This document shows positions 48,921 through 50,227 of a stretch of DNA of 64,000 bases, in pieces (position 1 is the stretch's first letter; each line of letters begins with the position of its first letter). The stretch is from Escherichia coli (GTDB lineage Bacteria > Pseudomonadota > Gammaproteobacteria > Enterobacterales > Enterobacteriaceae), in the NCBI RefSeq assembly GCF_045037415.1, contig NZ_CP173438.1, one strand, 5' to 3'. The position numbers and the translations under genes are program-made. The notes beneath the pieces were generated by a model, which worked only from the letters and a program-made list of their open reading frames with translations, ran no database searches and was not told the DNA's origin.

Positions 48921-49580
48921 CTATCCTTCCTGGACTTTGGTAAGCGTCAGATTTCCGCAGAACACTGCGCCGGTGTCGATGTACATTTGGTTTGCATACA
49001 CCAGTGGGTGATGTGCTGGCGTATGACCGAAGATGAACAAATCGGCACCGGTTATCTCCGAGACAATACCGTCCTGCGCGTCGCTAACCCGCTCACGATT
49101 CCATATCACCATTTCTTCCGGTACTGGCTTATCGAATGCGTATTCGTTGTGCGGGTAGTCTGCGTGGCAGATGACGACCTTCTTATTGCCGGTAACCAGT
49201 TCGATAATCATCGGGAGGTTGGTAACCTTTGGCAGAAGGTATTTGAGTTGCACATCCTGCTCAGAATCAAGTTGGTGCCACCATCCACCGCCGTTTGACA
49301 TCCAATGTCCGAAACTTCCGCCGTTGACCAGTGCATCCAGCATCATCTGCTCATGGTTGCCACGAACAGCTCGGAACCACGGCATAGTAATCAAATCCAG
49401 GCATTCGACGTTTTCAGCGCCGCGGTCAACAAGGTCACCAACGGAAATAAGCAAATCGCGCGCCGGGTCGAATGAAACTTTGTCGAGTTCGTTCATCAGC
49501 AGCGTGTAGCACCCATGCAGATCGCCGACGACGAAGATATTGCACCAGTCAGCGCCATTGATGCGTTGATATAGGTTCAT
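48921..49580 (-). CDS. Ser/Thr protein phosphatase (lambda PPase / PrpA-like metallophosphoesterase)
   Basis: motifs GDLHG, GDLVDRG, GNHE; ORF extends to 49700, but the ATG at 49580 overlaps the upstream stop (ATGA), giving about 219 aa. Confidence 0.85.
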
Positions 49581-50227
49581 GCTGCACGCTCCCGCCCCTG
49601 GTTGTCTGTTGGTGACAGCGGAGCATTGCTGAATGCATTTGTTAATCCGCCGATATCCAACGCGTATCCAGGGTGTAGTTGCACTGCCGGGTCTTCGCAC
49701 TGATTACCCCAAACATCGAAGCCATGAGACGTCTGGCGGGCGAACAGTTCAATGCGAGAAACATCGCCTAATAATTGCACAAGTTTTTCACGAACGATAT
49801 CTGGCTTTCTTGAATGCTCAAGCCGCGGTGCGGTAAATGACTGAACGATCCCTGCATTAATGCGCGTAGGTAGTTTTCCCTTTACCGCAAACAGGCAATC
49901 TTCACTATTGGCGCGAGTCATGTGTCCCATACCCATAACCAGTTTATCTGGTTGTCGACTACCACATTTTATCCACGTGAAGCCCTTCATCGTCATCAGA
50001 CGGAATCCCCAGGCTTCAACAACTTTTAGTGCTTCGAGTGGTTGTGTTGGCACCCACCACATGGCCAACAGACAGTTTTCATCGGCCAAATCCCACACAG
50101 GAAGGCGGCAGATATCCAGCACACTCATAACCGGATATTTAAAACCGGCACCGCGATTACCATCTGCGGCTTTGTCCCGGTATACCCAGGGTGGATCTGC
50201 ATAGATTAGTGTGTATTTCTTAGTCAT
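49577..50227 (-). CDS. MT-A70 family N6-adenine DNA methyltransferase
   Basis: DPPW catalytic motif in [15 protein letters not shown] at 50227 preceded by a G-rich RBS; stop overlaps the phosphatase start. Confidence 0.8.

What the first reader, a model, noticed from the sequence alone, without database searches (positions are those of the whole stretch)
48921..50227. Translationally coupled Ser/Thr phosphatase and MT-A70 adenine methyltransferase at the distal end of the early-left operon
The two genes overlap by ATGA. Both families are known in phages, but their tight coupling next to a PerC-like regulator suggests a co-regulated host-modifying module: the methyltransferase is an orphan (no cognate restriction enzyme adjacent), and the phosphatase could counteract host Ser/Thr/Tyr-kinase signalling. 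These functions are hypotheses.
Basis: partly seen in the sequence, partly recalled or inferred. Interest (0 to 1): 0.5.

Follow-up and report, generated by a model that had tools for sequence, protein, structure and literature searches.

The report
Prophage methyltransferase with swappable phosphatase gene
The two overlapping genes are real: a lambda-type phosphatase and a small adenine methyltransferase at the end of the early operon of a phiV10-like E. coli prophage. They are already annotated, and the phosphatase is only one of at least three interchangeable genes at that position, so the pair is ordinary and not a dedicated module.

Summary
Observation confirmed. On the minus strand, an MT-A70 methyltransferase (49577..50227) and a NinI/lambda-type phosphatase (48921..49580) overlap by ATGA at 49577..49580. 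Both keep their catalytic motifs. No restriction enzyme lies nearby, and a PerC-family gene sits immediately upstream.

The element is a complete phiV10/epsilon15-like (Uetakevirus) prophage inserted beside guaA. RefSeq and two phage records (PAS61, BP9) already annotate the same three genes.

The "co-regulated host-modifying module" reading is not supported.
- Among 80 viral contigs with a 98-100% identical methyltransferase, the gene behind it is DUF1382 in 56, the phosphatase in 18, and an 82-aa gene plus an Ant anti-repressor in 6. All use the same ATGAA junction.
- Homology to phiV10 stops at that junction and resumes inside the last 17 nt of int.
- Nine more distant phages carry the methyltransferase at the same kind of position, and none has a phosphatase beside it.
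- Overlapping stop/start codons are the rule in this operon (6 of 8 junctions).

Best reading: a conserved early-expressed orphan DNA adenine methyltransferase, probably anti-restriction, followed by a swappable accessory slot that here holds a nin-region phosphatase of unknown physiological substrate. Interest is low.

The parts
48921..49580 (-). NinI / lambda-type Mn-dependent Ser/Thr protein phosphatase (219 aa), last gene of the early-left operon; the variable cassette
   Evidence: It is 67% identical to lambda phosphatase 1G5B (E 6.7e-100), and D20, H22, D49, R53, R73, N75, H76, H139 and H186 are conserved. RefSeq protein WP_001055436.1.
49577..50227 (-). Orphan MT-A70-family (beta-class, DPPW) adenine methyltransferase, 216 aa: a bare catalytic domain plus a variable, low-confidence C-terminal tail
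   Evidence: Pfam MT-A70 matches model positions 1-172 of 172. AF2 model pLDDT 76, and Foldseek finds METTL3 and MTA1 catalytic domains (TM about 0.6-0.7). RefSeq protein WP_000163459.1.
49577..49580 (-). ATGA stop/start overlap; also the upstream recombination junction of the cassette
   Evidence: One search shows the sequence. Searches show that homology to phiV10 ends at window 49575 and that all three cassette types share ATGAA.
48902..49574 (.). Extent of the swapped segment relative to phiV10: the phosphatase gene plus the last 17 nt of int
   Evidence: blastn homology to phiV10 covers 50600..49575 and 48901..47500 and is absent in between. GC3 is 0.61 for the phosphatase against 0.46 for the methyltransferase.
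50220..50519 (-). PerC-family small regulator. Its stop overlaps the methyltransferase ATG by 8 nt. Start is either GTG 50519 (PAS61 annotation) or ATG 50471 (RefSeq).
50516..50632 (-). 38-aa membrane-protein ORF (equivalent to phiV10 p35) that links the AlpA-like gene and PerC by 4-nt overlaps
50629..50877 (-). AlpA-family HTH (excisionase-like) gene
50927..52686 (-). RecT recombinase (50927..51868) and PD-(D/E)XK exonuclease (51865..52686). These are recombination genes, not a restriction enzyme.
53171..53199 (-). Best sigma-70-like promoter match (TTGACA-17-AATTAT), a candidate early-left promoter. It lies downstream of the repressor-gene terminator at 53270..53251.
   Evidence: This is a consensus match only. 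No further minus-strand promoter or terminator hit occurs down to 48921.
47662..48918 (+). P4-type tyrosine integrase, tail-to-tail with the phosphatase (2-nt spacer). It marks the prophage end next to guaA.

Best explanation
The window holds the left arm of a complete phiV10/epsilon15-like (Uetakevirus) prophage integrated between guaA and yfgI. Its leftward early operon is a chain of mostly overlapping genes: two small ORFs, exonuclease, RecT, AlpA-like, a 38-aa ORF, PerC, methyltransferase, and a terminal gene.

The methyltransferase is a conserved backbone gene. It is a stand-alone MT-A70 catalytic domain with an intact DPPW adenine pocket and SAM-binding motifs. It most likely acts as a homodimer, is made only after induction or infection, and N6-methylates adenines in replicating phage DNA. 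Progeny would then be protected from adenine-methylation-sensitive restriction in the next host. This is an inference.

The position behind the methyltransferase is an accessory slot. Different cassettes have been exchanged there by recombination at the stop/start junction (ATGAA) on one side and inside the 3' end of int on the other. In this prophage the slot holds a NinI/lambda-type binuclear Mn phosphatase imported from a lambdoid nin region.

The ATGA overlap makes the phosphatase's translation depend on, or at least follow, that of the methyltransferase. That reflects how genes are packed throughout this operon and does not indicate a functional partnership. The phosphatase is catalytically intact. 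Its in vivo substrate is unknown, as for lambda NinI. An accessory host-takeover or counter-defence role is the most plausible guess.
For: Shown here:
- Gene identities and intact motifs.
- Prophage identity and completeness.
- Three alternative cassettes behind 98-100% identical methyltransferases, all with the same junction: 56 DUF1382, 18 phosphatase, 6 with an 82-aa gene plus Ant.
- Homology breakpoints at window 49575 and 48901.
- This phosphatase allele (>=95% identity) occurs in 145 E. coli records, and the pair is adjacent in 143. The methyltransferase at >=95% occurs in about 541 records.
- Methyltransferase homologues at 36-83% identity in Stx, Klebsiella, Hafnia, HK639, Vibrio, Polaribacter, Rhodobacter and haloarchaeal viruses are all short stand-alone enzymes in overlapped early-gene chains. 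None has a phosphatase or endonuclease beside it.
- NinI overlaps its upstream gene by 4 nt in lambdoid HK225.
- 6 of 8 junctions in this operon overlap.
- There is one promoter-like site, at the head of the operon, and no internal promoter or terminator hits.
- GC3 differs between the two genes, 0.61 against 0.46.

From the literature:
- Prophage methyltransferases are silent in lysogens and are thought to protect mobile-element DNA (PMC5778455, PMC4659465).
- Beta-class methyltransferases need dimerisation (PMC7544214).
- An Asp in the strand-4 motif indicates N6-adenine, whereas Ser indicates N4-cytosine (PMC4738411).
- ninI is non-essential in lambda (PMC10695390).
- The physiological substrate of lambda phosphatase is obscure (PMC3675462).
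Against: - No methylation data, recognition motif or expression data exist for this enzyme in anything I could search. The anti-restriction role, the DNA (rather than RNA) target and homodimerisation are all inferences.
- Every structurally characterised MT-A70 enzyme (METTL3-METTL14, MTA1-MTA9) needs a partner subunit for substrate binding. A lone 216-aa enzyme might therefore need an unidentified partner.
- The high-identity phosphatase allele is found almost only behind this methyltransferase (143 of 145 records). That fits one successful insertion spreading with the lineage, but on its own it does not exclude selection for the pair.
- The promoter and terminator scan is a consensus scan and found fewer promoter-like sites than the shuffles. 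The operon structure is therefore inferred mainly from gene packing and the phiV10 annotation.
Confidence: 0.72

Rival explanations
1. One reading: phosphatase and methyltransferase form a selected, co-regulated host-modifying module, possibly together with PerC. Their tight coupling would ensure stoichiometric co-production for a joint function.
For: - The ATGA overlap, and an 8-nt overlap with PerC.
- The pair is conserved at >=98% identity in 143 E. coli genome records and in phages PAS61 and BP9.
- This phosphatase allele is almost never seen without the methyltransferase.
Against: - About three quarters of near-identical methyltransferases are followed by a different gene at the same junction.
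- No phosphatase lies next to the methyltransferase in nine more distant phages.
- NinI normally lives in lambdoid nin regions with unrelated neighbours and the same style of overlap.
- Overlaps are the norm in this operon.
Confidence: 0.08
2. The MT-A70 enzyme is an RNA m6A methyltransferase, or a dual RNA/DNA enzyme, acting on host or phage transcripts. It would not be a DNA anti-restriction methyltransferase.
For: - The best Foldseek matches are METTL3 catalytic domains.
- The phage BP9 record annotates the homologue as 'N6-adenosine-specific RNA methylase IME4'.
- The phage beta-class enzyme M.EcoGII methylates RNA as well as DNA (PMC5778455).
Against: - The closest solved sequence relative is the ciliate DNA 6mA methyltransferase MTA1 (4e-13, against 6e-06 for METTL3).
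- It gives a strong match to a PADLOC Type II DNA methyltransferase model (2.7e-77).
- It has no RNA-binding domain such as the CCCH domains of METTL3 (PMC4738411).
- The eukaryotic MT-A70 clade is nested within prokaryotic R-M methyltransferases.
Confidence: 0.1
3. The methyltransferase serves the phage's own epigenetic control, for example the timing of replication, packaging or the lysis-lysogeny decision. Restriction evasion would not be its role.
For: - It sits next to regulators (PerC, AlpA-like) and recombination genes.
- Host Dam methylation is needed for stable lysogeny of Stx phage 933W (cited in PMC3342100).
- m6A regulates phage transcription and packaging in some systems (PMC4738411).
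Against: - No motif or target is known.
- The family occurs in very different phages, including virulent-looking Vibrio phages and a haloarchaeal virus with unrelated regulatory circuits. That favours a generic role in protecting DNA.
Confidence: 0.12
4. [quoted passage not shown] It would be a repair or counter-defence enzyme, not a protein Ser/Thr phosphatase.
For: [quoted passage not shown]
- The query also matches ApaH, PrpE and Pnkp phosphatase families at lower scores.
Against: - Lambda phosphatase lacks the positive RNA-binding surface of Pnkp, and its authors consider RNA an unlikely substrate.
- The best family matches are the protein phosphatases PrpA and PrpB (2.8e-79 and 1e-65).
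- There is no PADLOC match and no known anti-defence assignment.
Confidence: 0.15

Closest known systems
Escherichia phage vB_EcoP_PAS61 (OQ921333) and phage BP9 (PP488543); RefSeq proteins WP_001055436.1 and WP_000163459.1
   Same: They have the same int, phosphatase, methyltransferase and PerC-position arrangement at 98.5-100% nucleotide identity. The genes are already annotated as serine/threonine phosphatase and adenine/MT-A70 methyltransferase.
   Different: Nothing material.
Escherichia phage phiV10 (NC_007804; Uetakevirus) genes p31-p34
   Same: It shares the same integrase, methyltransferase (98.6% nt) and PerC, the same 4-nt overlap after the methyltransferase, and the same operon order.
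   Different: In phiV10 the terminal slot holds a 64-aa DUF1382 gene where this prophage has the 219-aa phosphatase. The last 17 nt of int also differ.
Bacteriophage lambda Ser/Thr phosphatase NinI (PDB 1G5B)
   Same: The two align colinearly over their full length at 67% identity, with all metal-binding and phosphate-binding residues conserved. The lambdoid homologue in HK225 has the same ATGA-type start overlap.
   Different: The genomic home differs. Lambda ninI lies in the rightward nin region upstream of Q, whereas this gene ends the leftward early operon of a podovirus prophage.
MT-A70 enzymes with solved structures: Tetrahymena MTA1 (7F4R, 7YI8) and human METTL3 (5IL1)
   Same: They share the catalytic-domain fold and the DPPW motif.
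   Different: Those enzymes work as heterodimers with an inactive paralogue and carry extra nucleic-acid-binding parts. The phage protein is a bare domain with no paralogue nearby. Sequence identity is only about 20-25%.
M.EcoGI / M.EcoGII, non-specific prophage adenine methyltransferases of E. coli O104:H4
   Same: They are orphan, prophage-borne beta-class adenine methyltransferases that are silent in the lysogen and presumed to protect phage DNA broadly (PMC5778455).
   Different: They are 349-aa DPPY enzymes with a normal central target-recognition region. That is a different family from this 216-aa DPPW MT-A70 enzyme, so no specificity can be transferred from them.

Membership tests
MT-A70 (PF05063) / beta-class N6-adenine methyltransferase | Full-length match to the family profile | tested here: met
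   Pfam MT-A70 3.1e-22, covering model positions 1-172 of 172 and query residues 5-176.
MT-A70 (PF05063) / beta-class N6-adenine methyltransferase | N-terminal catalytic motif IV is D-P-P-W (Asp, not Ser, at the first position, indicating N6-adenine), together with the C-terminal SAM-binding region | tested here: met
   D11, P12, P13 and W14 are invariant in 10 homologues. HSxKP (138-142), E160/F162/R164 and G174/N175 are conserved. The DPPW aligns to the MTA1 DPPW. The Asp-versus-Ser rule comes from PMC4738411.
MT-A70 (PF05063) / beta-class N6-adenine methyltransferase | MT-A70 catalytic-domain fold | tested here: met
   The AF2 model has pLDDT 76.4 and pTM 0.77. Foldseek against the PDB finds METTL3 and MTA1 catalytic domains at E about 1e-13 with TM 0.6-0.72.
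MT-A70 (PF05063) / beta-class N6-adenine methyltransferase | Methyl transfer to adenine N6 in DNA, and a defined recognition sequence | not testable with these tools
   No biochemical or methylome data were found for this enzyme or its close homologues.
Orphan (solitary) methyltransferase | No cognate restriction endonuclease encoded nearby | tested here: met
   The neighbours are int, phosphatase, PerC, AlpA, RecT and a RecT-partner exonuclease. No endonuclease lies next to homologues in 11 other contexts.
Lambda-type PPP-family Ser/Thr phosphatase (NinI; Metallophos PF00149) | The signature motifs DXH, GDXXDRG and GNHE, plus the distal His metal ligands | tested here: met
   GDLHG, GDLVDRG and RGNHE are present. 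D20, H22, D49, R53, R73, N75, H76, H139 and H186 are identical to lambda phosphatase. The active-site roles of these residues are taken from PMC3675462.
Lambda-type PPP-family Ser/Thr phosphatase (NinI; Metallophos PF00149) | Full-length orthology to lambda NinI | tested here: met
   phmmer against 1G5B gives E 6.7e-100 over residues 1-217 of both proteins, at 67% identity. PHROG 246 'NinI-like' scores 9e-108.
E. coli PrpA / PrpB equivalogs (NCBIfam NF008516 / NF007425) | Score above the curated equivalog cut-off | tested here: not met
   The scores are 266 bits against a cut-off of 326, and 221 bits against 332. The protein is related to PrpA and PrpB but is neither of them.
Translationally coupled gene pair | Stop codon of the upstream gene overlaps the start codon of the downstream gene | tested here: met
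   ATGA at 49577..49580.
Translationally coupled gene pair | Downstream translation depends on upstream translation | not testable with these tools
   This needs reporter fusions with an upstream nonsense mutation. A GGGAG Shine-Dalgarno-like sequence 8 nt upstream could also allow independent initiation.
Conserved functional module (phosphatase + methyltransferase) | Adjacency conserved across the methyltransferase's relatives | tested here: not met
   Only 18 of 80 near-identical loci have the phosphatase, and 0 of 9 more distant phages do.

The most novel reading that the evidence does not exclude
This 216-aa protein and its many phage relatives would be a minimal, partner-free MT-A70 enzyme with no recognisable target-recognition domain. 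It would methylate adenines with very low or no sequence specificity, by analogy with M.EcoGII or the ApT preference of MTA1. That would make it a prokaryotic prototype of the eukaryotic m6A writers and a broad anti-restriction device. In addition, the slot behind it would be a dedicated counter-defence cassette site, with NinI, DUF1382 and the 82-aa gene as alternative anti-defence genes. This would finally give lambda phosphatase a physiological role.
Probability: 0.12. Interest if true: 0.55.

Novelty: already known. Interest (0 to 1): 0.15.

Why it matters
As it stands it matters little. Both genes belong to well-known phage families, and the exact arrangement is already annotated in RefSeq and in sequenced phages.

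Three modest points are still useful.
- It is a clean example of cassette exchange precisely at an overlapping stop/start junction. This explains why "tight coupling" in phage operons should not be read as functional linkage.
- Neither protein has a known biological role. The recognition sequence of this widespread small MT-A70 phage enzyme is undetermined, and the in vivo substrate of lambda-type phosphatase has been an open question since 1989.
- The variable terminal slot is a reasonable place to look for counter-defence genes.

Tried and rejected
- M.EcoGIX as the known equivalent of this methyltransferase. Rejected: it is a plasmid-borne ssDNA methyltransferase.
- M.EcoGI and M.EcoGII as equivalents. 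Rejected: they are 349-aa DPPY enzymes of another family.
- Literature searches for phiV10 or MT-A70 phage methyltransferase characterisation. No biochemical data were found.
- Search for a known counter-defence role of phage phosphatases. The only hit is a Macro-domain ADPR-1''-phosphatase, which is unrelated to NinI.
- PADLOC scan. The phosphatase and PerC match no defence-system models. The methyltransferase matches generic Type II methyltransferase models only.
- Rfam scan of the whole window. No RNA family lies in 47.5-53 kb, so there is no hidden RNA element under the pair.
- Plus-strand ORFs across the region (48987..49298, 49171..49509, 49860..50204). I treated these as shadow ORFs of the strongly supported minus-strand genes.
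- Promoter and terminator scan for an internal, moron-type promoter in front of PerC, the methyltransferase or the phosphatase. None was found, though this is a consensus scan only.
- I did not run the large protein-database searches, because the phage and E. coli collections already answered the question about context.
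Full report
**1. What is there**

The minus strand of window 48921..50227 carries two real genes. The downstream gene runs from ATG 49580 to its stop at 48921 and encodes 219 aa. The upstream gene runs from ATG 50227 to TGA 49577 and encodes 216 aa.

The downstream protein is a lambda-type binuclear metallophosphatase.
- Pfam Metallophos scores 2.5e-15.
- PHROG 246 'NinI-like serine-threonine phosphatase' scores 9e-108.
- NCBIfam PrpA and PrpB models score 2.8e-79 and 1e-65, both below their equivalog cut-offs.
- The match to lambda phosphatase 1G5B is full-length and colinear at E=6.7e-100.
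- It is 67% identical to lambda phosphatase, and D20, H22, D49, R53, R73, N75, H76, H139 and H186 are all conserved. The roles of these residues come from PMC3675462.

The upstream protein is an MT-A70 methyltransferase.
- Pfam MT-A70 scores 3.1e-22 and covers the whole model, positions 1-172 of 172.
- PHROG 359 scores 3e-120.
- A PADLOC Type II methyltransferase model scores 2.7e-77.
- The closest solved sequences are the ciliate DNA 6mA methyltransferase MTA1 (4e-13) and METTL3 (6e-06).
- An alignment of ten phage homologues at 36-79% identity keeps D11-P12-P13-W14, H138-S139-x-K141-P142, E160/F162/R164 and G174/N175.
- An AlphaFold2 model (pLDDT 76, pTM 0.77) matches only MT-A70 catalytic domains in the PDB, with TM 0.6-0.72.
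- The protein is therefore a bare catalytic domain. Its roughly 40-residue tail varies between homologues, and the last ~20 residues (195-216) are modelled with pLDDT below 50. No target-recognition domain is evident.

**2. Surroundings**

guaA ends at 47469. A P4-type integrase (47662..48918, plus strand) follows, tail-to-tail with the phosphatase across a 2-nt spacer.

Upstream of the methyltransferase on the minus strand lie, in order:
- a PerC-family gene (Pfam PerC 8.6e-07), whose TAA overlaps the methyltransferase ATG by 8 nt;
- a 38-aa membrane ORF;
- an AlpA-like HTH gene;
- RecT;
- a PD-(D/E)XK exonuclease;
- two small ORFs;
- a terminator-like hairpin (53270..53251);
- the repressor gene.

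Six of the eight junctions in this chain are stop/start overlaps. The only good minus-strand sigma-70-like site in this stretch (53199..53171) sits at the head of the chain. No minus-strand promoter-like or terminator-like hit lies between it and 48921 (this is a consensus scan only).

The element is a phiV10/epsilon15-like Uetakevirus prophage. In a genome that is 100% identical over the finding, the prophage is complete, about 39.7 kb, and lies between guaA and yfgI. No restriction endonuclease is present, so the methyltransferase is an orphan.

**3. Already annotated**

RefSeq annotates exactly 'serine/threonine protein phosphatase | MT-A70 family methyltransferase | PerC family transcriptional regulator' at this locus. 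The full pair is present in 142 of 5426 complete E. coli genomes. Phages vB_EcoP_PAS61 and BP9 carry it at 98.5% identity.

**4. Is the pair a module?**

No. The evidence comes from five observations.

First, phiV10, TL-2011b and about fifteen other phage records match only the methyltransferase half of the query. In phiV10 the gene behind the methyltransferase is a 64-aa DUF1382 protein, also joined with a 4-nt overlap.

Second, I fetched 80 viral contigs whose methyltransferase is 98-100% identical and read the gene downstream of it.
- 56 have DUF1382 (PHROG 292).
- 18 have the phosphatase.
- 6 have an 82-aa gene (PHROG 9805) followed by an Ant anti-repressor.
- All share the junction ...GCATGAA.
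- A polymorphism 3 nt upstream of the junction ATG (GCAGC or GCTGC) occurs with both major cassettes, which suggests repeated exchange.

Third, blastn homology between the window and phiV10 runs from 50600 to 49575, stops, and resumes at 48901, which is 17 nt inside the 3' end of int. The swapped segment is therefore window 48902..49574. GC3 of the phosphatase (0.61) differs from that of the methyltransferase (0.46) and PerC (0.44).

Fourth, in complete E. coli genomes the phosphatase allele at >=95% identity occurs in 145 records, and the adjacent pair occurs in 143. About 541 records match the query at >=95%. Roughly a quarter of this methyltransferase lineage therefore carries the phosphatase.

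Fifth, more distant homologues of the methyltransferase show no phosphatase or endonuclease neighbour. These are Stx1 phage AU5 (83%), a Klebsiella prophage also at guaA (78%), Hafnia yong1 (73%), HK639 (45%), Klebsiella SopranoGao, Vibrio D63, Polaribacter Danklef_1, Rhodobacter RC1 and Halorubrum virus HRTV-28. All are short stand-alone enzymes, and all but the Polaribacter enzyme overlap at least one neighbouring gene in tightly packed early-gene chains.

Conversely, the nearest relatives of the phosphatase outside this lineage are NinI genes of lambdoid phages such as HK225 and phi80 (79% nt). In HK225 the NinI start overlaps the stop of NinE by 4 nt. From my own knowledge, the lambda nin region was described long ago as a 'chain of interlinked genes' with ATGA overlaps, and mosaic joints in lambdoid phages tend to fall at gene boundaries.

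**5. How it most likely works**

Shown here: both enzymes have intact catalytic machinery, they lie in one tightly packed leftward operon, and the terminal gene is exchangeable.

Inferred:
- The operon is repressed in the lysogen and expressed on induction or infection. This is the usual behaviour of prophage methyltransferases (PMC5778455 and PMC4659465).
- The methyltransferase acts as a homodimer. Dimerisation is essential for beta-class enzymes (PMC7544214).
- It methylates N6 of adenines. An Asp in the strand-4 motif indicates adenine, whereas Ser indicates N4-cytosine (PMC4738411).
- Its substrate is phage DNA, which would protect progeny from restriction.

The phosphatase is a Mn-dependent phosphoesterase whose natural substrate is unknown. 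[quoted passage not shown]

The ATGA overlap, with a GGGAG sequence 8 nt upstream, would let ribosomes finishing the methyltransferase re-initiate on the phosphatase. This was not tested. The same geometry serves whichever cassette occupies the slot.

**6. Rivals**

- A true phosphatase+methyltransferase module: about 0.08.
- An RNA methyltransferase: about 0.1.
- An epigenetic or regulatory role for the methyltransferase in place of anti-restriction: about 0.12.
- A non-protein substrate for the phosphatase: about 0.15.

Details and refutation tests are in the structured fields.

**7.

Comparing the methylome of a lysogen with that of a cured strain is unlikely to be informative, because the operon should be off. 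Induced cultures, virion DNA or plasmid expression are needed.

**8. Verdict**

The coupling is a by-product of operon packing and cassette exchange and does not indicate a functional partnership. The remaining interest lies in two unknowns: the specificity of this widespread minimal MT-A70 phage enzyme, and the biological role of lambda-type phosphatases.

Noticed in passing
window 63221..63297 (-): A tRNA-Arg (anticodon UCU) gene lies inside the prophage, between the terminase and portal genes. It is also annotated in the matching RefSeq genome.
   Followed up: partly
window 50516..50632 (-): A 38-aa membrane-protein ORF (PHROG 17484, equivalent to phiV10 p35) is annotated in phiV10 and PAS61 but not in the RefSeq genome record. 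Together with the GTG start of PerC at 50519, it makes an unbroken chain of overlapping genes: AlpA, p35, PerC, methyltransferase, phosphatase.
   Followed up: partly
window 48916..48923: The integrase (+) and phosphatase (-) stop codons are only 2 nt apart, with no terminator-like hairpin between them. Early-left transcripts should therefore run antisense into int. The cassette swap also replaces the last 17 nt (C-terminal codons) of int.
   Followed up: no
L020 4648..5877 (also L025, L052, L053, L069, L075): A third alternative cassette sits behind the same methyltransferase: an 82-aa protein of unknown function (PHROG 9805) plus a 218-aa Ant-type anti-repressor (PHROG 377).
   Followed up: partly
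L088 (Klebsiella phage ST512-KPC3phi13.3, MK422448): A Klebsiella prophage uses the same guaA-adjacent integration site and has the order RecT, AlpA, PerC, DUF1317, methyltransferase, two small genes, int. The attachment site and the left-arm layout are therefore conserved across genera.
   Followed up: no
window 50223..50489 (-): The PerC-family protein also gives a sub-threshold match to the NCBIfam ANR (AraC negative regulator) family: 2.7e-05, 23.9 bits against a cut-off of 32. The Pfam PerC match covers only model positions 5-50 of 90.
   Followed up: no
L004-L083, 3 nt upstream of the junction ATG: A GCAGC/GCTGC polymorphism just before the methyltransferase stop occurs with both the phosphatase and DUF1382 cassettes. 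This suggests the cassettes have been exchanged more than once.
   Followed up: no
window 5569..5678 (+), 12934..13238 (-), 26075..26166 (+): The host chromosome part of the window contains the known RNA elements iscRS, ryfA and sroE. These are ordinary.
   Followed up: no
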